DNA of 64,000 nucleotides from Diadema antillarum (lineage: Eukaryota). Made by a program: the position numbers and the translations under genes. The DNA is taken from positions 434,001-498,000 of the forward strand of contig NW_027271646.1 in assembly GCF_040938485.1 (NCBI RefSeq), read 5' to 3'. The notes under the pieces were generated by a model that saw only the letters and a list, made by a program, of their open reading frames with translations, was not told the origin of the DNA and made no database searches. Shown piece by piece: positions 13,052 through 63,203 of this stretch; the stretch's first letter is position 1, and each line of letters begins with the position of its first letter.

Positions 13052-14383
13052 ATGAACAAGTCGGAAGACATACCATTTGAGTTCACGTGGCGGAATGCCG
13101 CTTTCACGATGCTGGCGTTTGCCTTATGTCTCACCACAACCCTAGCCAACATTATACTCATCGTACTTGTGTGTGTTGATAAAGCACTTCGCCGCTACAA
13201 CAACTACTATGTGGTTAGCCTGGCAATGGCTGACCTGGCTGTGGGTGTGTTCGTTGCACCCATGTTCAGTCTGTACACCATACTGGGCGAGTGGCCGTTG
13301 GGAGAGATTGTCTGTGAGCTGTGGATCTTTGTTGACTTCACGTGCGTGTCGGCGTCCATGTTAGGACTCTGCCTGATTTCTCTCGACCGCTACTGGGCCA
13401 TCACACAGCCTCTGCGACACCTTCGTCGGCAGGGCAGAAGGAGGGCGCTCGCATCAATTGCGGTCGTTTGGGTCATCTCTGCACTTTGCTGGATACCGGC
13501 TATGGCAACATGGAAGGCTGTAGAAGGAAGTTTTGCCAAGGATTCTGAATGCCTATACCTTCCAAGCTTTACTTATGTGATGATTTCGACTGTCGTCGTG
13601 TACGGCGTTCCAATGGTATCCCTTGTCGTGCTGTATGGCCGAATTTACTACACCGTCAGGAACAAAATGCTCCAAGCCGGTCATACAATGAATGTGTCTA
13701 CTCCAGGGCTTGAGGAGAACCCTACAGATAATACAAAGTTGAGGTGTTGTTGTTGTATTGACAAGGGCGTCGACGGTGAGGATGCAACAATAGATAAATC
13801 CGAATCGTCTATAACTACGATATCACAAGGAATTGATTTATCAATGACCACTGCTATCGGTAGTATTGGAGTCGCCGTGACAACTCTGGGAGCCCACTCC
13901 AGTACAAGTGATCTCACACAAACGAAGAACCCTCTCGCAAGGAGAAGCAACCCAACCGACTTTGCGCAAGTCAATAACTGTCTTTCAGTGGATCTCGATA
14001 CTGATCAAAAGCAATCTCTCCCGCCGAAAGCGTCCGTAGCGGATTTGACACCGCGGACTTCGACCTACGCAGCAGGGCTGCAGACGTCACGGCAACTTCG
14101 GGAGCGACTTTCCAGACTCCGTCTGCAGCAGAGGACGTCGAAGACACTAGGAATCATCATTGTCGTGTTCCTCATCTGCTGGATACCGTTCATCGTGCTC
14201 TTTCCCTTGAATTCTTACTGCAGCTGTGTTCCCATCGAAGTGTACGACATGTCCTACTGGCTGGCCTACATCAACTCCGCGATGAACCCTTTCCTGTACG
14301 GATTCAACAGTGACTTCCGGAGAGCCTTTCGCAGAACAATGTGCATAAATTCGCTCGCTACTCGAGTACTGCGAAAGGCGTAA
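13052..14383 (+). CDS. Class A (rhodopsin-like) aminergic GPCR, histamine H1/muscarinic-like, intronless CDS, 443 aa
   Basis: Seven hydrophobic segments; TM2 SLAMADL, C3.25 and D3.32 (CELWIFVD), DRY, TM6 CWIPF, TM7 WLAYINSAMNPFLY, long third intracellular loop, N-terminal NKS glycosylation sequon. Confidence 0.93.
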   Translation: MNKSEDIPFEFTWRNAAFTMLAFALCLTTTLANIILIVLVCVDKALRRYNNYYVVSLAMADLAVGVFVAPMFSLYTILGEWPLGEIVCELWIFVDFTCVSASMLGLCLISLDRYWAITQPLRHLRRQGRRRALASIAVVWVISALCWIPAMATWKAVEGSFAKDSECLYLPSFTYVMISTVVVYGVPMVSLVVLYGRIYYTVRNKMLQAGHTMNVSTPGLEENPTDNTKLRCCCCIDKGVDGEDATIDKSESSITTISQGIDLSMTTAIGSIGVAVTTLGAHSSTSDLTQTKNPLARRSNPTDFAQVNNCLSVDLDTDQKQSLPPKASVADLTPRTSTYAAGLQTSRQLRERLSRLRLQQRTSKTLGIIIVVFLICWIPFIVLFPLNSYCSCVPIEVYDMSYWLAYINSAMNPFLYGFNSDFRRAFRRTMCINSLATRVLRKA

Positions 14384-16140: not shown

Positions 16141-18279
16141 CAGAACTCGTTTGTGCGTAAGTGTGTGCGCGCGCGAGTGTGCGTGCGTGTGGCATGACGT
16201 GTGTGAGTGTGCGTGTGCTCGCTTAGGTGCGCCATAAAAATGTAAGTGTATGTGGGGCCTACTACTCACGATACAGCAATGTATTCATCAATAAATGAAA
16301 ACAAAATGTTGATGAGAGCGACGTTCAGATAGATGAACACGACAACAGCTTCACGTGAAAATAATGACAAAATGCCCCACCCTTGCATGCATAAAAAATA
16401 TCATGATCATGTGAAAACCACTCACACCTGCGTCGTGCGGGAGTAGGTTCCATTCTTATCATGAAATCGAGATAATTTATCATGACAAAAGAAAAATAGC
16501 ATGATCCATGGTTAGTTAGACCAATTCTCTTAAAACGAACAAATAAGAAAAAAAAAAAACATTCTATAATCTGTAGCGCATAGTGTATTCGCAGAGATCA
16601 TAATGGCAAATTATTGGCAGTCGACAACGAAGTGGTCTCTATCCCATCCAGGACACAAAATACCATGGCCAACAATTAATCCGTTCTGTGCCAAGGAGTC
16701 AATTGTGTACAAATTTCACATACTTGCCTCTGGACAGGAGATAAATGCGGCACTCCGAGGGTTAAAGTAACCCTTTAGTAGTTGATCAACAGAAAAACAA
16801 AAGATTTCTCAGAAGGAGTTATCCTAGGTGGATCAATAACAGATGTAAGTTCTATGATATCAAAAATGATTCACCAGACAAAACTTGTTTGGCTGCTACT
16901 TTGATATTTGTTACTTTTTTTTCCACGCGGAGATTTCTTCGACACACTTCCAAATTATCCTTCATTGCTTCTGGCTATGCATTGAGTACGCGCCGCTTTG
17001 GGAAGAATTTCTATCAAATATCTTCAATAGTTTACCAAAAGCAACCCAGAGAATATATGGCAACAAATTGTATCAATAATTCCAACGAGGACTTATGTTA
17101 CACGAGAACAATCATATTTGTCCTTATCTTGTGAAATCCTTCACAACTATATAGGCATGTATAGTGTATTGGAACGACGATGACGCATGGGAAAAGAATC
17201 TATTCCAACTGATTACATGTGAGTAATGTTTTTTTCTAGAATGCTTCTCTCATGCAAAGCTATCTGTCCGTTGGTATATCATTTATTTAGGTTACCATGT
17301 TTGCATCGTGTACTTTATAAAAATAATCCTTCATGTTCCTTGATAAACTGCGAAATAAAAATAAAGGTAAACTTGCCAAGAATGAATGGTGTTTTCGCTG
17401 TTCATTTGGCTTAGCTTGAGTTGGGTCGAAACTTACAAAAATCATTCATATCCAAATACTTTTGGGTTTTCATCATTTCATACTCTCTACGTTTTCCGTT
17501 CATTCGATGCAACGAGATCATGACGAAAACTATACATTTCGAAAAACAATCTGGTTGAATTCACAGCATAATCACTATACGCTGTCCGGAGGTGGTAAGC
17601 TTTACTCTCACAATAATTGTTAATGGTTCTGTTTATCTTTGGGAGCAGAGATTTAAAAAATGTTTAAGTTATCACATTTGATGCATATGTGTAGGTCAGT
17701 TTTATCGCAAAACATCCTACCATATGCAATTTTCGCAACAAAGCCTAAAATATAAGGAGATATCTTTGTTTTCTCAATAAACCATAACTGTAGACGGTTT
17801 AGTATGGAAACATTTTATGACTATTGTTCACATTTTGTGTATTTAACAATATTTAATATCGATTATACTTATTCGAATTTTTACGTTGGTTGTTTCTATC
17901 CCTAACTCACATTTTAGAACTATTTTAAAGCTTAGTGCTGGGTTTTTGTTTCATCTGCTAATGGTAAATTATGCCTTTAAATTCTCACTCAGTGGTTGCT
18001 GTGCAGTTTGTTTGTTTCTTCCCCGACAACTCTGATGCTAGATTTTATTTCACTTTAGCGTGTTTTCAAGCACCAGTAATCAAAAACATGCTCTTTCAGC
18101 CGCTCATGTTCTCGCATATATAACACGTATAAACAGATCAACACGGAATGCCTATCATTAAACATGATAATAATCAGAAAAAAACTAAACATAAAAAATG
18201 TTTATTATTTGGATTTGTGAATCAAAGCGTGAATCAATTACGCAGTAGGTTGAATAAAAAAGTAAGATATACTTACTTG

Positions 18280-18316
<37 letters not shown>

Positions 18317-18526
18317 ATATGAAGAGTTTGTTCGCAAAAACGGATATAAGTCCATATTTGCCAAATGGAGATATTTGCGATTAAAGGACAAGAAAAATAA
18401 AGAGAATAATAAGACCATAACTTAAAAAATGTACCTTTATATGTAGTGACCAATATATCATTTAATAGGTATTATTTTGTACTTCATGACAGAGACCGTA
18501 CTTCCAAATCTTCAAAAATGGACTTT

Positions 18527-18668: not shown

Positions 18669-21600
18669 CAGTCAGTGTTGACCTACAATAACTCGGACTC
18701 AATTAGACAAAATCAATCACCTGGTTCTATTTAATAAGGACTGGGAAAAGAAGGAATGCTCAAAGATATTTTTCTATGTTTCCGTTACAAAAAAAAGGGT
18801 GTCTTTATTACTCCACTTTGTTGCAGTGTCTCGAAATAAACAAAATCCAAACAACTCCGGAATTATAACATTAGACTGAATACAAAGCAAACGAGTTTAA
18901 ACCAACGGTGAGCAACTTATAACAAATTCAAAACAACTAATAACAAAACGTAAACAAACTTAAAGCAACAAAATAAACCCAAAACTACGCGAACGCAACT
19001 ACAAAAGAAAGCAACACCGAAAACAACGTAGTAACAAAAGTTAAAAGCAAGCTTAAACAACAAACTTAAAACAACCTTAACAACGACTCTTAAAAGCAAA
19101 CGCAACACTTAAAGCAACTTTGACAACGAATCTAAAGCAAACGGTTAAAAGTGACTATAACAAAGCAACATTTAAAAATAGCAAGATGCAACGCAACAAG
19201 CAACGAATAACAACGCAACACTGTCCGACGCAGAATACAGCAAATCCGTGTCCCTTTCCCACAGAAGGTCTGACATTACAGCATGCGCAGTGCGCTGGGG
19301 TCCATCCACTTGACAGAAGTCTTGGTGTCTTCTTTGTACAAAGGATGAGGGACGGGACTATGCTACAGCCACAGGAGCAGGTTGATTAAAGTGACGTCCC
19401 TAACAAAAAAGTCCTGTGGTACTCCCTGTGGTACTTGTCGGTACCACACAATGTACCACACACTTGTAATGTTACCACAGGAACTGTGTGGTACTGTACC
19501 ACAGGCTTGTAGGGTACTCCCTGTAGTACTTGTCAGTACCACACAATGTACCACATAAATAAATGTTACCACAGGAACTGTGTGGTACTGTTTTACAGGC
19601 TCATGTGGTACTCCCTGTGGTACTGGTTGGTACCACACAATGTACCACACAAATATATGTTAACACAGGAACTGTGTGGTACTGTGTCACAGGATCGTGT
19701 GGTACTCTGGGATGTACCACAGGGCAGTACCACAGGACATTACCACAGGAAAGTACCACAGAACAGTACCACAAGACAGTATACACACAAATTGTCGTGT
19801 GGTATTTTGGGATGTATACCACACAACAGTACCACAGGACAGTACCACATGAATTGTCCTGTGGTATTTTGGGACGTACCACAGGAGAGTACAACAGGAA
19901 AGTACCACAGGATAGTACCACAGGACAGTACCACACGACTTGTTCTGTGGTATTTTAGGACGTACCACAGGACAGTACCACAGGGCAGTTCCACAGGAAA
20001 GTACCACAGGATAGTACCACAGGACAGTACCACAGGACAGTACCACAGGAATTGTCCTGTGGTATTTTGGGACGTACCACAGGACAGTACCACAGGATAG
20101 TACCACAGGACAGTACCACAGGAAAGTACAACAGGATAGTACCACAGGACAGTACCACACGACTTGTCCTGTGGTATTTTAGGACGTACCACAGGACAGT
20201 ACCACAGGGCAGTACCACAGGACAGTACCACAGGATAGTACCACAGGATAGTACCACAGGACAGTACCACACGACTTGTCCTGTGGTATTTTGGGACGTA
20301 CCACAGGGCAGTACCACAGGACAGTACCACAGGAAAGTACCACAGGATAGTACCACAGGACAGTACCACACGACTCGTCCTGTGGTATTTTAGGACGTAC
20401 CACAGGACAGTACCACAGGGCAGTACCACAGGAAAGTACCACAGGGCAGTACCACAGGAAAGTACCACAGGACAGTACCACACGACTTGTCCTGTGGTAT
20501 TTTGGGACATACCACAGGACAGTACCACAGGAATTGTCCTGTGGTATTTTGGGACATACCACAGGACAGTACCTCACGACTTGTCCTGTGGTATTTTGGG
20601 ACGTACCACAGGACAGTACCACAGGGCAGTACCACAGGACAATACCACAGGGCAGTACCACAGGAAAGTACCACAGGATAGTACCACAGGACAGTACCAC
20701 ACGACTTGTCCTGTGGTATTTTGGGACGTACCACAGGGCAGTACCACAGGACAGTACCACAGGATAGTACCACACGACTTGTCCTGTGGTATTTTGGGAC
20801 GTACCACAGGACAGTACCACAGGATAGTACCACAGGACAGTACCACACGACTTGTCCTGTGGTATTTTGGGACGTACCACAGGACAATACCACAGGAAAG
20901 TACCACAGGATAGTACCACAGGACAGTACCACACGACTTGTCCTGTGGTATTTTGGGACGTACCACAGGACAATACCACAGGAAAGTACCACAGGATAGT
21001 ACCACAGGACAGTACCACATGACTTGTCCTGTGGTATTTTGGGACGTACCACAGGACAGTACCACACGAATTGTCCTGTGGAATTTTGGGACGTACCACA
21101 GGACAGTACGACAGGAATTCCTGTGGTAATTTTCGATGTATACCACAGGAGAGTACCACAGGAACTGTCCAAAATCCCACAGGAAAATCATAATATGGTG
21201 CTATTCCACACAGAAGTACCACACAGCAAATTAAATTCGTAAGTACCACAGAAAAATGCTACAGGATATTCTTTTTTTTCTTAACATTTTATACCAGAGG
21301 ACTATCACATCAGGAGAATATCAAACAGCAGTACCACACAGGAGTACCACACAGGAAAATTGTAAGGCAGAATCAACTGAAATTTATAACAAAAATACAA
21401 ACAAAAAAGCACATATTAATATTCCTCAATCAATTGATAGATGAGTTATGCTGTGAATTATAACAATTGATTTGCCATTACTTATCCTGTCCTATACTCC
21501 TACAGTATTACCTATTTAGTGAAAGTGCTGATGTAAAGCATGAGAAATTTCATAAGGACTTCTGTGGTACTCCTGTGGTACTCCTGTGGTACTCCTGTGG

Positions 21601-22895
21601 TACAAATTTTTACATAGCTCATGAATATTCATAAAAAGCACTCTAGATTTTAGAAAATACATATATGACTTAAAAAGTCAAAGTATTAATGATGGAACTT
21701 ACTTTGAACTTTATGAAAGATTGTCTAATTATGTTATGTTATTCCCAATATCATAGATATTGTTATGAAAGTGTAATTTCATATCTTGATAATAAAGTAT
21801 AATCGAGTTAGTAACCATGCCTTAATGCTTTATGGATAGACGGCCATATATATATGTACTGAGAGGGTCGATGGCTACCTAGGAATAGAATATGACTATA
21901 TAGATCTATATAGGACTAGATTGGCACTTGGCCATTAGACTCTCGTTTGAGGTTATATGTTAGGAGTAGGACAGGTTATTAAGTAGGGCCATGTTTGTCC
22001 TAAAATCCATCACTCACCTATCAGAAATATTCCTTGAAATGTGGCTAAAAGTCTCCAAGATTTTTTTTTTTCGATCTATCCTGTGTGGTACTCTCCTGTG
22101 GTACCATGGAAATGCTGTGTGGTACTGCCCTGTGGTAATGCTGTGTGGTAATGATCGACCTGTGGTACTGTTCTGTGGTACTGTCCCAAAATACCACAGG
22201 ACAGTTCCTGTGGTACTGTTCTGTGGTACTAGTCCTGTGGTACTGCCCTATGGTACGTCCCAAAATACCACAGGAATTCCTGTGGTACTGCCCTGTGGTA
22301 CGTCCCAAAATACCACAGGAATTCCTGTGGTACTGTCCTGTGGTACTGTTCTGTGGTACCGGTCCTGTGGTAATTTCCTGTGGTACTGCCCTGTGGTACG
22401 TCCCAAAATACCACAGGAATTCCTGTGGTACTGTCCTGTGGTATGTCCCAAAATACCACAGGGCAATTCCTGTGGTACTGTCCTGTGGTACTTTCCTGTG
22501 GTACTGTCCTGTGGTACCGTCCTGTGGTAATTACCACAGGAGTACCACAGGACTTTTTCGTAAGGGGTTGCCTGCTTGGACGCCTTCTCAAGAATGATCA
22601 AAGGAGGTGCCCCTTCTGAATAACTTTAGGACACGCTTTCTACCCCTCACAGGGAGATTCCACTTATGGGGGGGGGGTGTTTCCCATGATTATGTAAATT
22701 ACCTCCTGACCTTACACCACCGTGTATGTACCTCTACTATACAACTAGAGTACTGTGATATATCATGCACCTACATGTGTGGATAGAGAATCAAATAGAT
22801 AAACATACATATAAATACTACATAATATATTGAGCGAGTGTAATCATCACAGGAAAGGGGGGGGGGTGAGTGCTGATATTACTGTGACCCTCACA
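18669..22895 (-). repeat. LTR-A (3' LTR of the composite), interrupted at 19398-22566; first 20 nt hidden in the gap
   Basis: Collinear with LTR-C (6 substitutions plus homopolymer length differences by eye); ends ...GACCCTCACA next to the PPT. Confidence 0.92.
19398..22566. mobile_element. 3169-bp non-autonomous CMC/EnSpm-type foldback element with GTACCACAG arrays
   Basis: TIRs CCCTAACAAAAAAGTCCTGTGGTACTC / GAGTACCACAGGACTTTTTCGTAAGGG; 2-bp TSD GT (19396-97, 22567-68). Removing it restores GACGTTGCC as in LTR-B and LTR-C. Arrays of the 9-mer lie in opposite orientation in the two arms. Confidence 0.88.
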
Positions 22896-24698
22896 TTCGC
22901 CACCGTTTAAAACCATTGTTGTCCTCAACAATGTAGATAAGAAAACAACAACATTTAAATTGAGTTTAGTCGAGGTCGTATTTGTTGCACCCTGAGGGAA
23001 GAGGTTGGGCCTCCATATCTTTGGGGAGATCGAACTTGGGTCCACACGAGCAATACTGCCATCCTCTTCACTCGTTACATCTGTACTGTCTTCATCAGCA
23101 TCATCTTCACTTTCACTGCTACCCGGCAAAAATGTGCACGCAGTCAGCATATTCCTGTGAAGAGTCCGCTCTTTGCCTGTGCTGTCCTCTCTGACAGTGT
23201 ATACATCCTGGTCAAGGAGCTTGCGTATCACAGTGTAAGGAGACTCACCCCATTTGTCAGCCAGCTTTTGACGACCTATCAGTGCCTTATGTGCTACGAG
23301 TACCTTATCTTCATGTTCAAAGGGAGCATCCCTGGCTTTCCTGTCATACGTGCCTTTCTGCTTGGCGCGAGCACTTTCGGCATTTTCGTGGGCATTTCGA
23401 TAAGCTTCTTGGAGAGTAAGGCGAAGCTCGTCGACATAGTTGGAGATGGATTTGTCGTCATCTTCCGGGGGTGTGCCGATGAGGTCAAGGGGGATACGTG
23501 GCTCTCTTCCAAACATAAAAAAGAATGGGGAAAACCCTGTTGATGCGTGTTTGGTGCAGTTATATGCGTGGGTGAGAGATTCCACGTGCTCCTTCCAGTT
23601 TGGCTTCTGCGATGGCTCCAGTGTCCCTAACATGTTGAGGAGTGTGCCGATAAACCTCTCCGTCATTCCATTCCCCTGTGGATGATACGGCGTTGTCCTG
23701 CTCTTTTGTATGTGAAGTAGTTCACATAACTCGCGTACTAGAGCTGCCTCAAAACACCTGCCTTGATCACTATGGATGCGTTCAGGTATGCCATAGTGAA
23801 CTATGTACCTGCTCCACAAAGTCCTAGCCACTGTTTGAGCAGACTGGTCTCTAGTAGGAAAAGCTTGGGCGTGGCGAGTAAAGTGATCCGTGACCACCAG
23901 GACATTCTCTATACCTCCCCGTGACGTCTCTAAGCTAAGGAAATCGATACATACCAGTTCAAGTGGTCTGCTTGACTTGATGGGTTGAAGTGGGGCCTTG
24001 GACTTTGCTTCTGTCGTCTTCCGGACAGTGCATCTTCGACACCTCTGGATGTACTGCTGGACTATCGTCTTCATGCCAGGTAAATAGAATCTGTCTTGCA
24101 TGAGAGCCAAAGTCTTCTCAAGCCCAAGATGACCCATTTCAACGTGTGCCCTACGGAGGGCCAGCTTCCTCAGACCTTTAGGCAGAACGAGTAGTCTACG
24201 ATCTCCTCTACTATACCACAGTACGCCATTCTCGCACACGTGCAGTCTATCCCACTGTCGAAGCAGCAAGCGAGCAACGATTGCTTCCTTTCGCAACTGA
24301 CGTGAGGCTGGTCTCTGTCCGGCTTGAAGGAGCTCGACGACTCGGCTGATAATGACGTCCTCTCTCTGCAGCTGTGCAAGCTCTTCCACATTTACGCCTG
24401 CCAACAAAGTAGATGAGCCATCATCGTGTTGCTCTGCAGGTGTAACATTAATGTTGTGGCTGGCTGCCGCCTGATGCAAGGGTGAGTCATCCTTCGTTTG
24501 CTCTGCTGCTGTATTGACTGGCACGTCTAATGCTTGTTTCACATCTGAAGAAGGGGTCCGAGACACCTCAGGCTCCTCCTCACCAGTGTTATTCCCCGTT
24601 GTCACCTGCGTCTGGTAGCTTGTTCCAGTTGTGCCAGGGCTACATTGGTTGAATGTACCCACAGACTGCCCCTCGTCTGCAGGTCGAACTAGTTTAAA
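22818..24698 (-). CDS. pol: Internally deleted pol: protease-leader stub fused in frame to an intact-looking integrase; C-terminus frameshifted into LTR-A
   Basis: HHCC (AHVEMGH...CRRC) and DDE (CIDF, HSDQG, TERF) are present. No DTG, YLDD or TDAS motif. The junction GEE-EPEVSRTP aligns to GEE and EDSLSRIP of the full pol. Confidence 0.88.
   Translation of the reverse strand, partial: FKLVRPADEGQSVGTFNQCSPGTTGTSYQTQVTTGNNTGEEEPEVSRTPSSDVKQALDVPVNTAAEQTKDDSPLHQAAASHNINVTPAEQHDDGSSTLLAGVNVEELAQLQREDVIISRVVELLQAGQRPASRQLRKEAIVARLLLRQWDRLHVCENGVLWYSRGDRRLLVLPKGLRKLALRRAHVEMGHLGLEKTLALMQDRFYLPGMKTIVQQYIQRCRRCTVRKTTEAKSKAPLQPIKSSRPLELVCIDFLSLETSRGGIENVLVVTDHFTRHAQAFPTRDQSAQTVARTLWSRYIVHYGIPERIHSDQGRCFEAALVRELCELLHIQKSRTTPYHPQGNGMTERFIGTLLNMLGTLEPSQKPNWKEHVESLTHAYNCTKHASTGFSPFFFMFGREPRIPLDLIGTPPEDDDKSISNYVDELRLTLQEAYRNAHENAESARAKQKGTYDRKARDAPFEHEDKVLVAHKALIGRQKLADKWGESPYTVIRKLLDQDVYTVREDSTGKERTLHRNMLTACTFLPGSSESEDDADEDSTDVTSEEDGSIARVDPSSISPKIWRPNLFPQGATNTTSTKLNLNVVVFLSTLLRTTMVLNGGECEGHSNISTHPPPFPVMITLAQYIM
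22896..22908 (-). other. Polypurine tract of the deleted unit
   Basis: Minus strand AAACGGTGGCGAA directly abutting the LTR start TGTGAGGG; identical at 26990-27002. Confidence 0.7.
24636..24698 (-). other. -1 ribosomal frameshift signal (UUUAAAC plus predicted pseudoknot), deleted unit
   Basis: T TTA AAC in gag frame immediately before TAG; the -1 frame reads FKLVRP. Stem ACCTGCAGAC/GTCTGTGGGT; loop GGGGC can pair with downstream GCCCT. Confidence 0.8.
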
Positions 24699-25789
24699 GG
24701 ATGCTGAGGTCCACGGAAGCCTTGCGAGTTTTGTCGATCGGGACAAGTCCGTGAATAGTGGCCAGGCTGTCCACAGGTATAGCAAGCGTTGCTATGTTGT
24801 GGTTGCCTACCACCTCTTCCTCTCCCTCTCCGACTGCCACCTTGGGAGGTCCATGGTTGCTGCAACCTACTCTCAAATTCCGCGAGCCTCCTCTGCTGGT
24901 CTTCCATCACCCTATGGAAGAGTGCCATATGCTGTTGCTGTGTGGAGGCCAGCTCTTGGATACTCCAGGTGAGTTGCTCTATCGTCTGTGCATCCTTCGA
25001 GGCCTCCTTCACATCTTGCCGGTATACCTGAGCCGTGGTCAGACGATCCTCTGATGCAATTACGTGCAGTTCCCATCTAAGTTCTCGGAATGTCATCTCC
25101 CTCGGCCTCATAGGAGCTAGACGAGCCTTGACCTTCTGGTCCCTTAAGCCGAACATGAATTGCGTAGTAAGCATAGCGTCCCGCACAGGCTTTTCAACCA
25201 TGGCCGCTTGGTCACCCTTATCTCGTGCGACCCTCAACCTTGCCTCCAGTGCGACGGCGTACTCGGATGGAGTTTCGCTGGCCTGCTGAGTTCGGGCGTA
25301 GAAGCTTGCCATGGGTGACGTCGTCCAGTCGCGGTCCCCATACTCGTCGAGAAGCTCTCTGAAAGCCAGCGCAGGCGTCATCTCCTCGTCACCACGGAGC
25401 TCCAAGTTCAGGATGAGGTCCCGCGCTCTTCCCCCTGTGTGCCTAACAATTTCATTGAACTGCATTTGTGGTGGCATTGAGCCCTTAGATTCTATGAAAT
25501 ACTTCATATCACGCACCCAATCCTCTACTTTTACTCCCCCCTTACCTGTGAAGACATTGACACCCTTGACTTGATGTGACACCACGAGCCTCGGCGTAAT
25601 GAACTGGTCTTGTCTCTGTGTCGGCTCAGGAACGGGGTCAAATCCTGCCATCTGAAGCGGGGTCACAGCTGGCCTTGGGTACTGCCACGTAGCTGAAGTC
25701 ATCGGGTCCGGCGTCGACGTCGCTCTCGGCATGCTGCGGGGATCGTCCGCTGGAGTTCTCACATCACTCGGTGGAATGGGAGAGGCCAT
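24689..25789 (-). CDS. gag: Gypsy Gag (366 aa) with capsid-like region and CCHC zinc knuckle, deleted unit
   Basis: Open ORF, CYTCGQPGHYSRTC knuckle, lies between PBS and pol; paralogue of 31092-32192. Confidence 0.92.
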   Translation of the reverse strand: MASPIPPSDVRTPADDPRSMPRATSTPDPMTSATWQYPRPAVTPLQMAGFDPVPEPTQRQDQFITPRLVVSHQVKGVNVFTGKGGVKVEDWVRDMKYFIESKGSMPPQMQFNEIVRHTGGRARDLILNLELRGDEEMTPALAFRELLDEYGDRDWTTSPMASFYARTQQASETPSEYAVALEARLRVARDKGDQAAMVEKPVRDAMLTTQFMFGLRDQKVKARLAPMRPREMTFRELRWELHVIASEDRLTTAQVYRQDVKEASKDAQTIEQLTWSIQELASTQQQHMALFHRVMEDQQRRLAEFESRLQQPWTSQGGSRRGRGRGGRQPQHSNACYTCGQPGHYSRTCPDRQNSQGFRGPQHPLN

Positions 25790-25894
25790 CTTGACGACTA
25801 ATTAGACAGTGTTGCGTTGCTATTTCTTTAAACCTTATCAACTTATTAATCAATTTAGAGTTTAAGTCTATGCGAGCTTCCTTCTTTTCAGTAA

Positions 25895-25912
25895 TTCCGG
25901 GTTTCGGCACCA
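25895..25912 (-). other. Primer-binding site, tRNA-Phe (17/18 match)
   Basis: Plus strand TTCCGGGTTTCGGCACCA versus the tRNA-Phe 3' end TCCCGGGTTTCGGCACCA (recalled); 6 nt from the LTR-B end. Confidence 0.85.
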
Positions 25913-25918
25913 AAATTA

Positions 25919-26989
25919 TGTGACCGGCTGGACACGTCCAGTCAGTGTTGACCTACAATAGCTCAGACTCAATTAGACAAAATCAATCACCTGGTTCTAT
26001 TTAATAAGGACTGGGAAAAGAAGGAATGCTCAAAATTATGTGACCGGCTGGACACGTCCAGTCAGTGTTGACCTACAATAGCTCAGACTCAATTAGACAA
26101 AATCAATCACCTGGTTCTGTTTAATAAGGACTGGGAAAAGAAGGAATGCTCAAAGATATTTTTTCTGTATTTCCGTTACAAAAAAAAAGGTGTCTTTATT
26201 ACTTCACTTTGTTGCAGTATTTCAAACTAAGCCAAAACTCAAATAACTCCAAAATTGTAACATTAGACTGAACACAAAGCAAACGAATTTAAAACAACGA
26301 AAAGCAACTTATAGCAAATTAAAAACAACTAATAACAAAACAACACTAAAAGCAAATTTAAAACAACGTAAAGGCAGCACTGAAATAAACTACCAAAAAG
26401 GCAACGCAAAAGCAACGAATAACAAAAGTTAAAAGCAAACTGAAACAACGGAAATCAACGGTTAAAGAATAACAAGAGGCAACGCAACACTGTCCGACGC
26501 AGAATACAGCAAGTCCGTGTCCCTTTCCCACAGAAGCTCTGACATTACAGCATGTGCAGTGCGCTGGGGTCCATCCACTTGACAGAAGTCTTGGTGTCTT
26601 CTTTGTACAAAGGATGAGGGACGGGACTATGCTACAGCCACAGGAGCAGGTTGATTAAAGTGACGTTGCCTGCTTGGACGCCTTCTCAAGAATGATCAAA
26701 GGAGGTGCCCCTTCTGAATAACTTTAGGACACGCTTTACCCCTCACAGGGAGATTCCACTTATGGGGGGGGTGTTTCCCATGATTATGTAAATTACCTCC
26801 TGACCTTACACCACCGTGTATGTACCTCTACTATACAACTAGAGTACTGTGATATATCATGCACCTACATGTGTGGATAGAGAATCAAATAGATAAACAT
26901 ACATATAAATACTACATAATATAATGAGTGAGTGTAATCATCACAGGAAAGGGGGGGGGGTGAGTGCTGATATTACTGTGACCCTCACA
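25919..26989 (-). repeat. LTR-B (shared middle LTR, mosaic, with 120-bp duplication)
   Basis: TGTGACC...CTCACA termini. The right part is nearly identical to LTR-A/C; the left part is divergent and shorter. Confidence 0.92.
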
Positions 26990-27002
26990 TTCGCCACCGT
27001 TT
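26990..27002 (-). other. Polypurine tract of the full-length unit
   Basis: Minus strand AAACGGTGGCGAA abutting LTR-B. Confidence 0.7.
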
Positions 27003-27048
27003 AAAACCATTGTTGTCCTCAACAATGTAGATAAGAAAACAACAACAT

Positions 27049-30000
27049 TTAAATTGAATTTAGTCGAGGTCGTATTTGTTGCACCCTGAGGGAAGAGGTT
27101 GGGCCTCCATATCTTTGGGGAGATCGTCGTGTTCTCGATGAGCGCCGCTGACGATTTGCATCGACTTCACTGCGCTTCTTCCCTGGAGGATGACTCGAAC
27201 TTGGGTCCACATGAGCAATACTGACATCCTCTTCACTCGATACATCTGTACTGTCTTCATCAGCATCGTCTTCACTTTCACTGCTACCCGGCAAAAATGT
27301 GCACGCAGTCAGCATATTCCTGTGAAGAGTCCGCTCTCTGCCTGTACTGTCCTCTCTGACAGTGTAGACATCCTGGTCTGGCAGCCTGCGTATCACGGTG
27401 TACGGGGACTCACCCCATTTGTCAGCCAGCTTTTGACGACCTATCAGTGCCTTATGTGCTACGAGTACCTTATCTCCATGTTCAAAGGGAGCATCCTGGG
27501 CTTTCTTGTCATATGTGCCTTTCTGCTTGGCTCGAGCACTTTCGGCATTTTCCTGGGCGTTTTGATAAGCCTCTTGGAGAGTGTGGCGAAGCTCGTCGAC
27601 ATAGTTCAGAATGGGTTTGTCGTCATCTTCCGGAGGTGTGCCGATGAGGTCAAGGGGGATACGTGGCTCTCTTCCAAACATCAAAAAGAATGGGGAAAAC
27701 CCTGTTGATGCGTGTTTGGTGCAATTATATGCGTGGGTGAGAGACTCAACGTGCTCCTTCCAGTTCGGCTTCTGCGATGGCTCCAGTGTTCCTAGCATAT
27801 TAAGGAGTGTACCATTGAAACGTTCGGTCATTCCATTCCCCTGTGGGTGATACGGCGTTGTCCTGCTCTTTTGTATGTGAAGTAGTTCACATAACTCGCG
27901 TACTAGAGCTGCCTCAAAACACCTGCCTTGATCACTATGGATGCGTTCAGGTATGCCATAGTGAACTATGTACCTGCTCCACAAAGTCCTAGCCACTGTT
28001 TGAGCAGACTGGTCTCTAGTAGGAAAAGCTTGGGCGTGGCGAGTAAAGTGATCCGTGACCACCAGAACATTCTCTATGCCTCCCCGTGATGTCTCCAAAC
28101 TAAGGAAATCGATACATACCAGTTCAAGTGGCCTGCTTGACTTAATGGGTTGAAGTGGAGCCTTGGACTTTGCTTCTGTCGTCTTCCGGACAGTGCATCT
28201 TCGACACCTCTGGATGTACTGCTGGACGATCGTCTTCATGCCAGGTAAGTAGAATCTGTCTTGCATGAGTGCCAAAGTCTTGTCAAGTCCAAGATGACCC
28301 ATTTCAACATGTGCCCTACGGAGAGCCAGCTTCCTCAGACCTTTAGGCAGAACGAGTAGTCTACGATCTCCTCTACTATACCACAGTACGCCATCCTCGC
28401 ACACATGCAGTCTATCCCACTGTCGAAGCAGCAAGCGAGCAACGATTGCTTCCTTTCGCAACTGACGTGAGGCTGGTCTCTGTCCGGCTTGAAGGAGCTC
28501 GACGACTCGGCTGATAATGACGTCCTCTCTCTGCAGCTGTGCAAGCTCTTCCACATCTACGCCTGCTAACAATGTAGATGAGCCATCATCTTGTTGCTCT
28601 GCAGGTGTGACATTAACGTTGTGACTGGCTGCCGCCTGATGCAAGGGTGAGTCATCCTTCGTTTGCTCTTTTGTGGTACCCAGGGACATGTCTAGAGTGT
28701 GCTGTACTTCTGAGGAGGGGATTCGAGACAAGCTATCCTCGTTCTCGTTGGATTTCCCAGACCTGTATTCAATGTGCAAATCACATTGCGCCAAGTCACT
28801 CACCCATCGCTGCCCATGTGCATCGAGTTTCGCCTTCCCCAGAATGTAAGTTAACGGATTGTTGTCCGTTACCGCTGTGACTTTCCTGCCATAGACATAG
28901 TCGCGAAATTTCACTGTTGCTGCCCAGTGGAGGGCCTTGAACTCGAGCTTATGTGCTGGATATCTAACCTCCCCTGGTGAAAGACTTCGACTGGCGTAGG
29001 CCACTACCCTCTCCTTACCATCTTGTATTTGAGCAAGCACGGCTCCCAGTCCATCGAGAGAGGCGTCTGTCTGTAGGATGAAGGGGGACTCGAAATCGGG
29101 GTAAGCGAGAACGGGGGCAGAAATCATCAGTCTCTTCAAGGACTCGAATGCAGCCTGGCAGTCGCTGGTCCAGACATCTGTAACTGGAGCTCGCTTCCCA
29201 GTTCCATTTTTGCCTCCAACCAGGGAGAACAGCGGTCTGGCGATCTTCGCATAGTCCTTGATAAACCTGCGATAGTACCCTGTAAAGCCAAGAAAACTTC
29301 GTACCTCCCTCTTGTTCTTGGGTACCGGCCAGTCTCGGACAGACTCAATTTTCTCAGGGTCGGTTGCCACTCCATGCTCAGACACCACGTGACCAAGATA
29401 CTTCACTTCTTTCCTGAGGATGTGGCACTTACTGGGTTTGAGCTTTAACCCATGCTCTCTCAGGCGTGAGAAGACACGTTCCAGCCTGCTTAGATGTTCT
29501 TGTAACGTCGAACTGAATATGATGACGTCATCTAGATAGATAAGTACCTCACTCAGATTCATGTCTCCGAACACCGTGCTCATCAGGCGCTGAAAAGTGG
29601 CCGGTGCATTCATCAGGCCGAACGGCATCCTCGTGTACTCAAACAAGCCCATCGGTGTGGTAAACGCCGTCTTCCGCTGGTCCTGTTCGGCCACCTGCAC
29701 CTGTAAGTAACCCGCCATCAAGTCAAGACTGGTGAAGAACTTGGCCTTGCTGAGAGCATCTAGTGATTCATCAATTCTTGGAAGAGGGAAAGCGTCACGG
29801 ATGGTGCGAGTATTAAGCTTTCTGTAATCGACACATAGACGAATCTTCCCATCCTTCTTCCGCACAATGACAATAGGGGACGCAAATGGGCTCTTACTTG
29901 GCTTGATGATGCCAGCAGACTGGAGCTCGCTCAGGTGGTCCTTTACCTCTTTGAAGTCCGATGGTGCAATTCGTCTGTATGGCATTCGGAATGGTGTCGG

Positions 30001-31101
30001 GTCTATGAGGGGGATGTCGTGTACGATAGTGTTGGTACAGCCGAAGTCTTCTGGCCCCTGGGAGAAGACATCTGCGTTCTTTCGTAGCAGTCCTTGTAGT
30101 GCATCCAATTCAGAAGGAGTTAACTCTCCCGTGGGTAAGTCCAGCTCCGGGGGCAGCGAACTAACATCTTGATGCAAAACATTTGTAGCAGTGTGCGGGG
30201 AAGTTAACTCCTTGCTTTTGTTATTGGAAGCCTCTGTCGTCCACGGTGAGTCTTGCACTAGACTGCCAACTTCCAACCTCGCAATTGGCTGGTTCCTACG
30301 CAGGGTCACTGGTTGTGTCGACCTGTTAGTGACAACCAATTTTAGGTCACCATCTGCAACAGGAGTGAAGGCTGATTCAACGCTTATTCTCCCTAACTTG
30401 TTGCATTCACCAACCATGGCCATAAACAAGCGATTATGGGTGTGCCTCGGAGCTCTTGCAGAGACTTGGACGTATTCACCGGGGTTGACGAGAAATGGCT
30501 TCCTGCTCTTGAGTCTTGCGACTCCGACATCTCCCGACCGGTCAGCGAGATCCAAACCATCGCAGTTTAGTGCCTGGAATGCATTAAAGCAAGCGGACGA
30601 CACAGGCTTTACTTTTTCCATGAAGTTACGTCCGTACTTTGAGTGTAGGCGATCCCGAGAAGCACGCAAAGCATTAGTCCCAAGCAGACACGATATGTGG
30701 CCTCCCTTTCCGATCGCAGGGACTACCAAAGCTGGGACCGACTTCACCTCTATCCCCATAATTTCAATATCCAGCGAAATAAAACCTCTATGAGGGACTT
30801 CCTGCCCGTTCGCGCCCTCTATCCTAATCTCAGTCGGCTTAATGTCCTGCTTGCTGAGGTAGGGATGTCGAGCCACATAATCGGAGGTGATGGTCGTAAC
30901 TTGTGACCCCGTATCCAAAATCGCCTCGCACTCCTGGCCATGAACGATAATCGTCGTGTGGTTGACTGGGCCCACGAGCTCCTCACCAGTTTCATTTCCT
31001 CTTTTCACCTGTGTCTCGTAGTTGGTTCTCTTCCTACCAGGGCTGCACTGGTTAAATGAACCCACAGATTGCCCCTCATCTGCAGGTTGGGCTAGTTTAA
31101 A
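27049..31101 (-). CDS. pol: Gypsy Pol polyprotein (PR, RT, RNase H, integrase), uninterrupted, expressed by -1 frameshift from gag
   Basis: ILDTGS (PR), LCVDYRKLN and YLDD (RT), TDAS (RNase H), HHCC and DDE (IN) in one open frame. Confidence 0.96.
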   Translation of the reverse strand, partial: FKLAQPADEGQSVGSFNQCSPGRKRTNYETQVKRGNETGEELVGPVNHTTIIVHGQECEAILDTGSQVTTITSDYVARHPYLSKQDIKPTEIRIEGANGQEVPHRGFISLDIEIMGIEVKSVPALVVPAIGKGGHISCLLGTNALRASRDRLHSKYGRNFMEKVKPVSSACFNAFQALNCDGLDLADRSGDVGVARLKSRKPFLVNPGEYVQVSARAPRHTHNRLFMAMVGECNKLGRISVESAFTPVADGDLKLVVTNRSTQPVTLRRNQPIARLEVGSLVQDSPWTTEASNNKSKELTSPHTATNVLHQDVSSLPPELDLPTGELTPSELDALQGLLRKNADVFSQGPEDFGCTNTIVHDIPLIDPTPFRMPYRRIAPSDFKEVKDHLSELQSAGIIKPSKSPFASPIVIVRKKDGKIRLCVDYRKLNTRTIRDAFPLPRIDESLDALSKAKFFTSLDLMAGYLQVQVAEQDQRKTAFTTPMGLFEYTRMPFGLMNAPATFQRLMSTVFGDMNLSEVLIYLDDVIIFSSTLQEHLSRLERVFSRLREHGLKLKPSKCHILRKEVKYLGHVVSEHGVATDPEKIESVRDWPVPKNKREVRSFLGFTGYYRRFIKDYAKIARPLFSLVGGKNGTGKRAPVTDVWTSDCQAAFESLKRLMISAPVLAYPDFESPFILQTDASLDGLGAVLAQIQDGKERVVAYASRSLSPGEVRYPAHKLEFKALHWAATVKFRDYVYGRKVTAVTDNNPLTYILGKAKLDAHGQRWVSDLAQCDLHIEYRSGKSNENEDSLSRIPSSEVQHTLDMSLGTTKEQTKDDSPLHQAAASHNVNVTPAEQQDDGSSTLLAGVDVEELAQLQREDVIISRVVELLQAGQRPASRQLRKEAIVARLLLRQWDRLHVCEDGVLWYSRGDRRLLVLPKGLRKLALRRAHVEMGHLGLDKTLALMQDRFYLPGMKTIVQQYIQRCRRCTVRKTTEAKSKAPLQPIKSSRPLELVCIDFLSLETSRGGIENVLVVTDHFTRHAQAFPTRDQSAQTVARTLWSRYIVHYGIPERIHSDQGRCFEAALVRELCELLHIQKSRTTPYHPQGNGMTERFNGTLLNMLGTLEPSQKPNWKEHVESLTHAYNCTKHASTGFSPFFLMFGREPRIPLDLIGTPPEDDDKPILNYVDELRHTLQEAYQNAQENAESARAKQKGTYDKKAQDAPFEHGDKVLVAHKALIGRQKLADKWGESPYTVIRRLPDQDVYTVREDSTGRERTLHRNMLTACTFLPGSSESEDDADEDSTDVSSEEDVSIAHVDPSSSHPPGKKRSEVDANRQRRSSRTRRSPQRYGGPTSSLRVQQIRPRLNSI
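31039..31101 (-). other. -1 ribosomal frameshift signal (UUUAAAC plus predicted pseudoknot), full-length unit
   Basis: T TTA AAC TAG, 6-nt spacer, 11-bp stem AACCTGCAGAT/ATCTGTGGGTT, loop GAGGGGCA complementary to downstream GCCCT. Confidence 0.82.
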
Positions 31102-32192
31102 GGCTGCTGCTGCTGCGGTCCACGGGAACCCTGCGAGTTCTGTCGATTTGGACATGACCGTGCAAAGTGTCCCGGCTGTCCACATGTGTAGCACGCATCG
31201 CTCCGCCGTGGTTGCCTGCCACCTCTTCCTTCCCAACTGCCGCCTTGAGGGGTCCATGGTTGCTGCATCCGGCTCTCAAATTCAGCCAGCCTCCTCCGCT
31301 GGTCCTCCATAGCCTTATGGAACAGGTCCATCTGCTGTTGCTGAGTAGAGGCCAGTTCCTGCATACTCCTCGTCAGCTGCTCTATTATCTGCGTCTCCCT
31401 CGACGCCTCCTTCACATCCTGCCTATACACTTGGGCAGATGCTAGACGCTCCTCAGACTCTATTACATGCAGTTCCCGTCGCAGCTCTCGAAATGTCATC
31501 TCTCTCGGCCTCATCGGGGCTAGACGAGCCTTGACCTTCTGGTCCCTCAAGCCGAACATGAATTGGGTCGTAAGCATGGCGTCCCGCACAGGCTTTTCAA
31601 TCATGGCCGCTTGATCACCCTTATCTCGTGCGATCCTCAGCTTTGCCTCCAGTGCGACGGCGTACTCGGATGGAGTTTCGCTGGCCTGCTGAGTTCGGGC
31701 ATAGAAGCTTGCCATGGGTGACGTCGTCCACTCGCGGTCCCCATACTCGTCGAGAAGCTCTCGAAAAGCCAGCGCAGGCGTCATCTCCTCGTCACCACGG
31801 AGCTCCAAATTCAGGATGAGGTCCCTCGCTCTTCCCCCTGTATGCCTAACAATTTCATTGAACTGCATTTGTGGTGGCATTGGGCCCTTAGATTCTATGA
31901 AATACTTCATATCACGCACCCAATCTTCTACTTTTACTCCCCCCTTACCTGTAAAGACATTGACACCCTTGACTTGATATGACACCACGAGCCTCGGCGT
32001 AATGAACTGGTCCTGTCTCTGTGTCGGCTCAGGAACGGGGTCAAATCCTGCCATCTGGAGCGGGGTTACAGCTGGCCTTGGATACTGCCACGTAGCTGAA
32101 GTCATCTGGTCCGGCGTCGACGTCGCTCTCGGCATGCTGCGGGGATCGTCCGCTGGAGTTCTCACATCACTCGGTGGAATGGGAGAGGCCAT
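31092..32192 (-). CDS. gag: Gypsy Gag (366 aa) with CCHC zinc knuckle, full-length unit
   Basis: CYTCGQPGHFARSC knuckle; overlaps pol in the -1 frame. Confidence 0.93.
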   Translation of the reverse strand: MASPIPPSDVRTPADDPRSMPRATSTPDQMTSATWQYPRPAVTPLQMAGFDPVPEPTQRQDQFITPRLVVSYQVKGVNVFTGKGGVKVEDWVRDMKYFIESKGPMPPQMQFNEIVRHTGGRARDLILNLELRGDEEMTPALAFRELLDEYGDREWTTSPMASFYARTQQASETPSEYAVALEAKLRIARDKGDQAAMIEKPVRDAMLTTQFMFGLRDQKVKARLAPMRPREMTFRELRRELHVIESEERLASAQVYRQDVKEASRETQIIEQLTRSMQELASTQQQQMDLFHKAMEDQRRRLAEFESRMQQPWTPQGGSWEGRGGRQPRRSDACYTCGQPGHFARSCPNRQNSQGSRGPQQQQPLN

Positions 32193-32297
32193 CTTGACGA
32201 CTAATTAGACAGTGTTGCGTTGCTATTTCTTTAAACCTTATCAATTTATTAATTAATTTAGAGTTTAAGTCTATGCGAGCTTCCTTCTTTTCAGTAA

Positions 32298-32315
32298 TCC
32301 CGGGTTTCGGCACCA
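32298..32315 (-). other. Primer-binding site, tRNA-Phe (18/18 match)
   Basis: Plus strand TCCCGGGTTTCGGCACCA equals the recalled tRNA-Phe 3' end including CCA. Confidence 0.88.
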
Positions 32316-32321
32316 AAATTA

Positions 32322-33401
32322 TGTGACCGGCTGGACACGTCCAGTCAGTGTTGACCTACAATAACTCGGACTCAATTAGACAAAATCAATCACCTGGTTC
32401 TATTTAATAAGGACTGGGAAAAGAAGGAATGCTCAAAGATATTTTTTCTATGTTTCCGTTACAAAAAAAAGGGTGTCTTTATTACTCCACTTTGTTGCAG
32501 TGTCTCGAAATAAACACAATCCAAACAACTCCGGAATTATAACATTAGACTGAACACAAAGCAAACGAGTTTAAACCAACGGTGAGCAACTTATAACAAA
32601 TTCAAAACAACTAATAACAAAACGTAAACAAACTTAAAGCAACAAAATAAACCCAAAACTACGCGAACGCAACTACAAAAGAAAGCAACACCGAAAACAA
32701 CGTAGTAACAAAAGTTAAAAGCAAGCTTAAACAACAAACTTAAAACAACCTTAACAACGACTCTCAAAAGCAAACGCAACACTTAAAGCAACTTTGACAA
32801 CGAATCTAAAGCAAACGGTTAAAAGTGACTATAACAAAGCAACATTTAAAAATAGCAAGATGCAACGCAACAAGCAACGAATAACAACGCAACACTGTCC
32901 GACGCAGAATACAGCAAATCCGTGTCCCTTTCCCACAGAAGCTCTGACATTACAGCATGTGCAGTGCGCTGGGGTCCATCCACTTGACAGAAGTCTTGGT
33001 GTCTTCTTTGTACAAAGGATGAGGGACGGGACTATGCTACAGCCACAGGAGCAGGTTGATTAAAGTGACGTTGCCTGCTTGGACGCCTTCTCAAGAATGA
33101 TCAAAGGAGGTGCCCCTTCTGAATAACTTTAGGACACGCTTTCTACCCCTCACAGGGAGATTCCACTTATGGGGGGGGGGGTGTTTCCCATGATTATGTA
33201 AATTACCTCCTGACCTTACACCACCGTGTATGTACCTCTACTATACAACTAGAGTACTGTGATATATCATGCACCTACATGTGTGGATAGAGAATCAAAT
33301 AGATAAACATACATATAAATACTACATAATATATTGAGAGAGTGTAATCATCACAGGAAAGGGGGGGGGGGGTGAGTGCTGATATTACTGTGACCCTCAC
33401 A
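32322..33401 (-). repeat. LTR-C (5' LTR of the composite, 1080 bp)
   Basis: TGTGA...TCACA inverted termini, adjacent to the PBS, flanked on the right by (TA)n. Confidence 0.95.
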
Positions 33402-33471
33402 TATATATATATATATATATATATATACTATAGTAATATAGTAATATAGTAATATAGTAATATAGTAATAT
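33402..33471. repeat. (TA)n followed by (TAGTAATA)n, flanking LTR-C
   Basis: Direct reading of the sequence. Confidence 0.9.
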
Positions 33472-33859
33472 TATTGGACATTTCCCCAAAATACTATCAT
33501 TCAGAGCGACTTCCTTGGGTTTCTAATAAATGCTAATGCAATAAGTAATAAAAATGGAGAAAAAAATACACAAACACAGCAAACTAAATATGATAAAATT
33601 TCTAAAGCTCCATTTTCCATTCTGATTAAATGCTTCAGGCACGACCAAACAATCATCTTTAACATTGATTAAAGTTAATAATCTTTAATATAGGGCCTAC
33701 GTCATCAATCAACATCTTCAACAAGCATGGTGAGGAGGAAACTCAAGGTGGTATAGTTTCTGTCATTTTTCCGCCTCTTGAAAACACGAAACAACAAACC
33801 AAAATGAAATCCGTAAACTTTATTGTTCTATACCTCCAACACATATTTTATATAGGCGC

Positions 33860-34246
33860 TTAAGGGATGGCATAGTATTGGTGGAGATGTGAGCTTTTCA
33901 CTTTTTGCGAGATACTAAGAAACCACTTTTGAAATGTTAGAGTATACAATTCCAGAGGAATTCAAAGTTCATTTAATGAAAATCTGTTTGGAAATGGCTG
34001 AGATATCCAAAAGCAAAGTAAAACAAAGTGATCTTAATAAAAGGTAGGTCCCATCTTTTATTCAGAGCGCTTTGTTTGGATATCTTGGCCATTTCAAAAC
34101 CAATTTTCATCAAATAAACGTTGGTTTCCTCTTGAAATTACATGATCTTTCATATTTCATTAGAGGTATCTCCTTATCTCATTAAAAAAAAAAGCAGACA
34201 CCTGAAGCAATGATCAGTCTTAAACAAAACTATATTATCCCTGTAA
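33860..34246. mobile_element. Degenerate Kolobok-like MITE
   Basis: TTAAGGGATGGCATAGTATTG versus CAAAACTATATTATCCCTGTAA, plus an internal palindrome GAAATGGCTGAGATATCCAAA...TTTGGATATCTTGGCCATTTC. Confidence 0.5.
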
Positions 34247-35025
34247 GGCCCCTTAATATGAGAAAATAATTATGACATCAAGGAAATACACGAATACGTC
34301 ATGCATTCTTCAGTGTTACAGCGAGCGCTGTTTCCGACATGGATATGATGCTTCGATATACTCATGCGGATTACATGTAGGTGTAACGGCTGCTGATATT
34401 TTTTGACGTCATACTGGAACGGGACAATGATAATTGTTGTGGTCGAGCGACCACGCATTCATACCGCGAGGGCCTGCTTGGCTAAACTAGGTCAAAGATC
34501 TATTATCTGTATTCACTGGAGAGGAAACTTTTGTAAGTTGGGTTGGCTTGCGGAGCACTCTTAGTTTTCCACACGTTATACGCGTATCACTGCCATAAGT
34601 GGTATAAGGGAAGGATGTAGTGATCCAGAACACAGGGATTTATGAGACACAAGATTTACTAGAGTGACGCACGGGAAGAAGGCTGCCCAGACCTGTCTGT
34701 TATATCTCATCACAGTTATTTCTTTGAAGTTTTGCTTCTCCTTCGCATTTGATCACGTTAGATCACTGGTTGGCAAAGTCGCTTTTCGCTACGTAGGCTG
34801 CATGTATACATGTAGACATGCGGCTTCTTCTTTATAGACTCAAAGAGTGTTTGGTGATAAAGCACATGCTTGTACGATATTTGTGTGATTGCGACCGTTC
34901 TTCTGTCTGAAGATCTTGGAGCATAATAGTTTGAGGTAGCTTTCTCTCTGCAAACCTGCAAGTTGACTGAAACTGGCCATTCAAATAAAGCAACCCAAGG
35001 ACTTGCTTGAGAGAAGAAAAAAAAA

Positions 35026-62955: not shown

Positions 62956-63203
62956 TTATATATATAGGCCTATATATATTTTGTAATATATATAATGTAT
63001 ATATACATATCATATATCATATATTTACATTTGTCTGTAGCTGGCGGTTGACAGCAGGCATAAAATGCTGCAATGAGTATCAACTATGCCATGAATAGAT
63101 GGATGTAATGTTCTGTTTTAAGGTTTCCGTTGCACATTGACCGTGACTGAGACAAGTTCTATACAAAAGTATACTGACTCTGCTCTCTCATTCTGAGTTT
63201 GTA

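What the first reader, a model, noticed from the sequence alone, without database searches (positions are those of the whole stretch)
18669..33401. Three-LTR composite with near-identical outer LTRs and a mosaic middle LTR
Seen: LTR-A and LTR-C differ by about 6 substitutions in about 1060 bp. LTR-B matches them in its right roughly 450 bp (U3 side) but is clearly divergent and shorter in the left part next to its PBS. Established: reverse transcription makes the two terminal LTRs of one cDNA identical, and template switching between co-packaged RNAs can create complex multi-LTR insertions. Inference: helper and defective partner were joined and integrated recently as one unit. Simple unequal crossing-over between two copies of one element would not give this LTR pattern.
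Basis: partly seen in the sequence, partly recalled or inferred. Interest (0 to 1): 0.7.

Follow-up and report, generated by a model that had tools for sequence, protein, structure and literature searches.

The report
Two-in-one retrotransposon: helper plus partner
A complete jumping gene and a crippled relative sit joined head to tail at one chromosomal site, sharing a middle terminal repeat, likely because the copying enzyme jumped between their two RNAs in one round; such composites are known from plants, but here the repeats also carry the marks of two lost introns, which show which parts came from RNA.

Summary
Observation confirmed. A 14.7-kb Ty3/Gypsy composite on the minus strand: LTR-C, a full unit (gag, pol), LTR-B, a unit lacking protease-RT-RNase H, and LTR-A with a later 3.2-kb DNA transposon. 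A and C differ at 6 of 1056 sites. They share two U3 variants and a left segment found in no other copy fetched from this genome. B's left part is the partner's own (3 of 301 differences to C76). The other haplotype (C157) has no LTR here, so nothing suggests two neighbouring insertions fused by a deletion. A second three-LTR tandem (C1501) shows the plain-duplication pattern instead. Best reading (0.5): a double template switch between co-packaged RNAs, as Sabot and Schulman proposed for plants. Rivals: circle recombination near the PPT (0.22) and read-through of an unseen tandem (0.15). B is not shown to be a mosaic of A/C, and the left target-site duplication lies under N. New here: the family has long LTRs with two GT-AG introns, and A, B and C lack both exactly. 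No earlier scan note held all search words. No long reads or RNA could be laid.

The parts
18669..22895 (-). LTR-A, 3' LTR of the composite (left ~20 bp and left flank under N); spliced form; interrupted by a DNA transposon
19398..22566 (.).
   Evidence: (802 candidates, 40 scored, 4 other places at 100%)
22896..25918 (-). Unit 2 internal region, non-autonomous partner (PBS to PPT)
24689..25801 (-). Unit 2 gag, 370 codons open, CCHC knuckle; 89% identical to unit 1 Gag
22818..24791 (-). Unit 2 pol remnant, 657 codons open: protease, RT and RNase H deleted in frame (junction near 24565-24576), integrase kept; a 71-bp deletion at 23029/23030, seen in no other fetched copy, changes the C-terminus
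25895..25912 (-). PBS of unit 2 (TGG start, 6 nt from the LTR); one substitution not seen in unit 1 or the 12 other internal regions
25919..26989 (-). LTR-B, shared middle LTR; family-common U3, partner-type (C76-like) left part, spliced form
25911..26154 (.). 120-bp tandem duplication of B's U5 end plus spacer, with a 4-bp microhomology
26990..32321 (-). Unit 1 internal region, full-length element
27049..31275 (-). Unit 1 pol, 1408 codons open, PR-RT-RH-IN order; no env; overlaps gag in another frame
31092..32204 (-). Unit 1 gag, 370 codons open, CCHC knuckle
32298..32315 (-). PBS of unit 1
32322..33401 (-). LTR-C, 5' LTR of the composite; TGTGA...TCACA ends; AATAAA on the element strand at 32478-32483; private variants shared with A at 33143-33144 and 33334
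32943..33007 (-). 65-nt exon-like block between two exact intron-loss junctions (33008/33007 and 32943/32942); same junctions in A and B
33402..33427 (.). (TA)13 tract flanking LTR-C, the family's usual target

Best explanation
The composite is one insertion of a full Ty3/Gypsy unit and a Gag-plus-integrase partner that were likely joined in a single round of reverse transcription by two template switches between co-packaged RNAs. Inferred steps: priming on the full element's RNA; transfer of the strong-stop DNA to the partner RNA's 3' end; copying of the whole partner RNA through its PBS to its 5' end; a second jump to the full element's 3' end; completion and integration into a TA microsatellite. 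This makes both outer LTRs U3(partner)+R/U5(helper) and the middle LTR U3(helper)+R/U5(partner). Shown: anatomy, one site, common source of A and C, partner origin of B's left part, later DNA-transposon insertion. The lost introns show that everything left of 33008 in these LTRs passed through the 5' part of an RNA at some point in their ancestry.
For: One site: the other-haplotype contig C157 aligns to both flanks (17676-18526 and 33399-34689), with 79 bases between the two alignments and no LTR match. A and C share a 2-bp insertion seen in 2 of 40 rows and a T at 33334 seen in 2 of 33 rows; rows include a few repeats from overlapping loci. Their left segment has no other full-length match among 37 of 37 candidates scored. 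B's left 300 nt are nearest the 5' LTR of C76 (3 of 301), whose internal region is also nearest unit 2 (5 of 1200 over 24396-25595; other lineages 72-171). B and C are identical over 32919-33142, which straddles the first intron junction and so lies where R may begin. Single crossovers inside an LTR fail: one predicts B sharing C's U3 variants, the other predicts A sharing B's U5 (deduced). Patchwork internal regions across 14 copies show frequent recombination between helper and partner. The model and its signature are in PMC1950507 (both parts of the text read).
Against: No variant ties B's U3 to unit 1 or the A/C U3 to unit 2; an apparent link was an alignment artefact. Unit 1's tail (27125-27290) is 0 differences from autonomous C682 but only 1-2 from partner copies C48/C76, so it does not discriminate. 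Neither exact parent is among the copies found in this assembly. The left target-site duplication cannot be read. PMC1950507 itself found this class rarer than recombinant complexes (2 versus 20) and showed no mechanism directly. In fission yeast, cDNA recombination makes hybrid tandems with one shared LTR (PMC11042837, passages).
Confidence: 0.5

Rival explanations
1. A full element (C, unit 1, A) was already integrated, and a one-LTR circle or cDNA of the partner (B plus unit 2) later recombined into it, crossing over near the PPT or in the integrase region. B is then an ordinary partner LTR, not a mosaic.
For: It explains all private A/C variants with one parent. B lacks both private U3 variants and looks like ordinary family LTRs. 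The units share exact tracts of 65-218 nt in the 3' part. Hybrid tandems by integrase-independent recombination, with PBS/PPT homology, are shown for Tf1/Tf2 (PMC11042837, passages).
Against: The crossover cannot lie in the LTR beyond its first 67 nt, nor upstream of the deletion. Unit 2 keeps a partner-like tail at 23220-23500 (4 of 281 to C1501, 12-22 to autonomous copies), which weakly confines it to the last few hundred bases before the LTR, a small part of the shared homology.
Confidence: 0.22
2. The tandem formed earlier at another locus, was transcribed through LTR-B, and was copied by ordinary reverse transcription, which renewed the outer LTRs and left B untouched.
For: It predicts the same letters. 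This route is proposed for multi-LTR Cassandra copies (PMC4079214, passages). The family forms tandems (C1501).
Against: No donor or second copy among the candidates scored (40 of 48; 18: 37 of 37; 19: 26 of 26). B keeps its AATAAA, so read-through would be a minority (inference).
Confidence: 0.15
3. Assembly artefact: two loci were mis-joined through shared LTR sequence.
For: No long reads could be laid. None of the four public runs laid spans the composite or shows the 120-bp duplication.
Against: The assembly keeps haplotypes apart (C157, C600/C1501, C48/C76). B and unit 2 have no identical copy elsewhere that could be the source. The C-type segment exists in two other samples (0-1 differences over 103-239 nt).
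Confidence: 0.05
4. Two independent neighbouring insertions recombined (Devos type), or one element was duplicated by unequal crossing-over.
For: The family targets TA tracts, so two hits in one tract are possible. Plain duplication occurs in this family (C1501).
Against: Independent elements would not share private variants in A and C. The empty allele shows no sizeable host deletion. In C1501 all three LTRs differ equally (0.55-0.63%) and the two units by 0.32%, unlike here.
Confidence: 0.03

Closest known systems
Template-switching complex LTR retrotransposon insertions (Sabot and Schulman 2007, PMC1950507; both parts of the text read)
   Same: Three LTRs, two internal regions each with PBS and PPT, outer LTRs most alike, one site.
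   Different: Animal host; one unit is a non-autonomous deletion type rather than a complete core; target is a TA microsatellite and the duplication is unread; lost introns mark the RNA-derived part of the LTR.
Complex three-LTR elements of rice (bioRxiv 10.1101/452573; part 1 of 2 read)
   Same: Falls in its class with the smallest distance between LTR1 and LTR3 (six elements there).
   Different: Its own model (recombination of two cDNAs before integration) predicts one outer LTR equidistant from the others, which is not seen here.
Hybrid Tf1-Tf2 tandems by integrase-independent, Rad52-dependent insertion (PMC11042837; passages read)
   Same: Two related elements sharing one LTR at one site.
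   Different: In the clones described the central LTR reverts to the resident's sequence; here B's U5 is the partner's.
Multi-LTR Cassandra TRIMs (PMC4079214; passages read)
   Same: Internal LTR flanked by PBS and PPT.
   Different: Cassandra is non-coding and its multi-LTR forms are amplified; this composite is coding and single.
Ty3/Gypsy (Metaviridae) LTR retrotransposons
   Same: PR-RT-RH-IN order, TG...CA LTRs, best solved-structure match Ty3 RT (302 bits versus at most 126 for retroviral RTs), no env frame.
   Different: Clade not determined. LTRs with two spliceosomal-type introns were not found in my searches.

Membership tests
Template-switching complex (Sabot and Schulman 2007) | Internal third LTR with PBS and PPT | tested here: met
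Template-switching complex (Sabot and Schulman 2007) | Outer LTRs most similar | tested here: met
   6 of 1056, with shared private variants
Template-switching complex (Sabot and Schulman 2007) | Two complete core sequences | tested here: not met
   Unit 2 runs from PBS to PPT but lacks PR-RT-RH
Template-switching complex (Sabot and Schulman 2007) | Flanking target-site duplication | not testable with these tools
   Left flank under N; right flank (TA)13; the empty allele supports one site
Template-switching complex (Sabot and Schulman 2007) | Chimeric LTRs with the switch in R | tested here: inconclusive
   Compatible identity block 32919-33142; parents not found
Recombinant complex of two adjacent insertions (Devos type, as described in PMC1950507) | Outer LTRs from independent insertions; intervening host DNA lost | tested here: not met
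Ty3/Gypsy LTR retrotransposon | Domain order PR-RT-RH-IN and RT nearest Ty3 | tested here: met
Ty3/Gypsy LTR retrotransposon | PBS complementary to a host tRNA | tested here: inconclusive
   TGG-start 18-mer conserved in all internal regions that keep it; resemblance to tRNA-Phe is recalled; a genome pattern search gave 0 matches
Env-bearing retroelement or endogenous retrovirus | env frame between pol and the 3' LTR | tested here: not met
   pol ends 59 nt before LTR-B
CMC/EnSpm-like DNA transposon (insert in LTR-A) | Terminal inverted repeats, 2-bp duplication, subterminal repeats | tested here: met
   superfamily name recalled, no transposase tested

The most novel reading that the evidence does not exclude
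An animal Gypsy family whose LTRs carry two real introns in the transcribed R/U5 part and circulate in unspliced and spliced forms, and in which a helper and a Gag-plus-integrase partner were caught fused by a double template switch. The natural intron marker would map the switch to the start of R and make this locus direct genomic evidence of helper-partner co-packaging.
Probability: 0.35. Interest if true: 0.62.

Novelty: new variant of a known kind. Interest (0 to 1): 0.45.

Why it matters
If the joining happened in reverse transcription, the locus records a helper RNA and its dependent partner inside one particle, a step that PMC1950507 says awaited direct demonstration, and extends the class to an animal. 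The intron-bearing LTR is a natural version of the engineered intron reporter. It fixes which part of the LTR is copied from the RNA's 5' end and can be confirmed with ordinary RNA data. Practically, such composites mislead LTR-based dating and annotation. It is one decayable insertion on one haplotype, with no sign of a host function.

Tried and rejected
1. A link between the A/C U3 and the partner lineage C1501/C600, suggested by the site table, was rejected: direct context counts show C1501/C600 have a different one-base indel and the TC insertion is private to A and C. 2. A search for the priming tRNA gene gave 0 matches; PBS identity stays recalled. 3. No RNA holder was listed among 22 runs; this says nothing on expression. 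4. Four runs, all contigs, were laid. None shows the 120-bp duplication or the 71-bp deletion, and all listed contigs over 33142 and 33334 carry the common state; contigs drop rare variants, so this was not used as absence. 5. The unit 2 deletion as a splice: no GT follows the matching point in unit 1, and the parent of that segment is not held, so it was dropped. 6. Start of the rearranged C76 copy at 33197 as a transcription start: the copy is inverted and truncated, not used. 7. Paper searches without a useful hit: (0 papers); searches listed nothing on spliced versus unspliced LTR forms (listings only, plus passages of PMC12786077, which name internal introns of Ogre and EVADE). One search was seen as a listing only. 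8. No protein homolog search was run, so the Gypsy clade is open.

Full report
Anatomy. Self-comparison and ORF scans show a minus-strand composite. In element order: LTR-C (33401-32322), unit 1, LTR-B (26989-25919), unit 2, LTR-A (22895 to at least 18669; an N run hides its last ~20 bp and the flank). Unit 1 has open gag (370 codons) and pol (1408 codons) frames with protease, RT, RNase H and integrase in Ty3/Gypsy order. Its RT is nearest Ty3 among solved structures, and there is no env frame. Unit 2 has an open gag and a 657-codon pol remnant in which about 2.25 kb (protease, RT, RNase H) is missing in frame and integrase remains. A 3169-bp DNA transposon with a 2-bp GT duplication splits LTR-A; identical copies occur elsewhere, so it arrived later.

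Observation. A and C differ at 6 of 1056 sites plus homopolymer gaps. B matches C at 474 of 476 sites on the right and differs by 10.9% on the left.

The family. The assembly keeps both haplotypes. Searches of the own genome and 38 fetched stretches gave five other full-length copies (C1511, C1230, C9, C100, C682) and seven internal regions with the same deletion junction (36-41 of 41 nt, versus 12 for full copies) at four independent sites (C76/C48, C1501/C600, C289, C1554). The partner is therefore a transposing subfamily. Between units dN/dS is 0.08-0.09 in gag and 0.08 in the integrase core. Among partner copies pN/pS is about 0.3 in the partner-specific part of gag and 0.57-0.78 across the deletion linker, and several partner copies have broken frames, so selection on the partner's own proteins is modest. 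Copies sit mostly in TA tracts. Internal regions are patchworks of one another.

One site. C157 matches both flanks of the composite, with 79 bases between the two alignments, TA tracts there and no LTR sequence. The composite is thus on one haplotype only and no sizeable host segment is missing. Its LTR divergence (0.57%; interval 0.21-1.24%) lies within the family's range of 0-0.91%, with 5 of 7 pairs closer, and below allelic flank divergence of 1.09%. It is young but not the youngest.

Where the LTRs come from. A and C share a left segment with no other full match in this genome, a TC insertion (2 of 40 rows) and T33334 (2 of 33 rows). Pieces of the C-type segment occur in two other samples, so it is a real LTR lineage. 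B's left 300 nt are nearest the 5' LTR of C76 (3 of 301), the copy nearest unit 2 (5 of 1200). B's U3 is the family's common type. So B's left part belongs to the partner, and the outer LTRs have one source. That B is a mosaic is compatible with the data but not shown.

Control. C1501 is a second three-LTR tandem whose allele C600 is single (same flanks). Its three LTRs differ equally (0.55-0.63%) and its units by 0.32%. C1501 itself could also be an assembly effect; this was not tested.

Introns in the LTR. The family has long (about 2.5-2.6 kb) and short (about 1.0-1.1 kb) LTRs. The long form has two extra segments around a 65-nt block. Of 41 rows (38 distinct LTRs), 15 lack both segments exactly, including A, B and C. 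The first segment reads AG|GTAAG...TTTTAG in 22 of 23 rows where it was measured, and the second G|GTGAAT...TAG in 19 of 20; the exception both times is the diverged C541 copy. These are canonical splice sites on the element's sense strand, so the short LTR is most simply the spliced form fixed by reverse transcription (inference; no RNA seen). Transcription must then start within the first 394 nt of the LTR, and the hypervariable part lies in R/U5. The only AATAAA on the element strand of LTR-C is at 32483. My searches listed no report of this, which is a limited check.

Mechanism. A double template switch (PMC1950507) predicts outer LTRs U3(partner)+R/U5(helper) and a middle LTR U3(helper)+R/U5(partner). 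All B-versus-C differences fall either side of an identical block at 32919-33142, as that model requires. Crossovers inside an LTR are excluded by the private variants. Two rivals give the same letters: a partner circle recombining into a resident element close to the PPT (compare PMC11042837), and read-through of a tandem that is not in this assembly (compare PMC4079214). A private substitution in unit 2's PBS would fit an unprimed partner RNA, but may be a later mutation. I put 0.5, 0.22 and 0.15 on these three, 0.05 on misassembly and 0.03 on fusion or duplication in place.

Verdict. A real three-LTR composite of a known plant-described kind, varied by its helper-plus-partner make-up, animal host and intron-marked LTRs. 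The mechanism is likely but not decided. Supplements of the papers were not consulted.

Noticed in passing
LTR-C 33008/33007 and 32943/32942; long form in L003, L004, L008-L010, L013-L018, L020, L022-L027: The family's long LTRs hold two GT-AG introns (about 1.1 and 0.5 kb) that short LTRs lack exactly; both forms occur as near-identical LTR pairs, so both have transposed.
   Followed up: yes
L008/L009 (G000:C1501:552900-566700) and L010 (C600): A second three-LTR tandem of two partner units; the allelic site holds one unit.
   Followed up: yes
L013/L014 (C76) and L015 (C48): An inverted, truncated partner copy with a spliced 5' LTR and an unspliced 3' LTR lies inside a long LTR of opposite orientation, with a further 1.5-kb insert.
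   Followed up: partly
L040 (G000:C157:727676-734488): The other haplotype carries a 6.8-kb insertion at window position ~17680 that the window lacks.
   Followed up: no
L007 (C682): Full-length copy whose two 811-bp LTRs share a large internal deletion yet differ at 1 site, so the deleted LTR was copied by reverse transcription.
   Followed up: no
L032/L033 (C419, C361): A diverged relative (77-83%) with several internal deletions.
   Followed up: no
window 13019-14383 (+): Single-frame rhodopsin-family GPCR gene (7tm_1), about 4 kb from the composite.
   Followed up: no
window 8650-10876 and 63196-63748: Nested inverted-repeat (MITE-like) elements with a related copy at the window's far end.
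   Followed up: no
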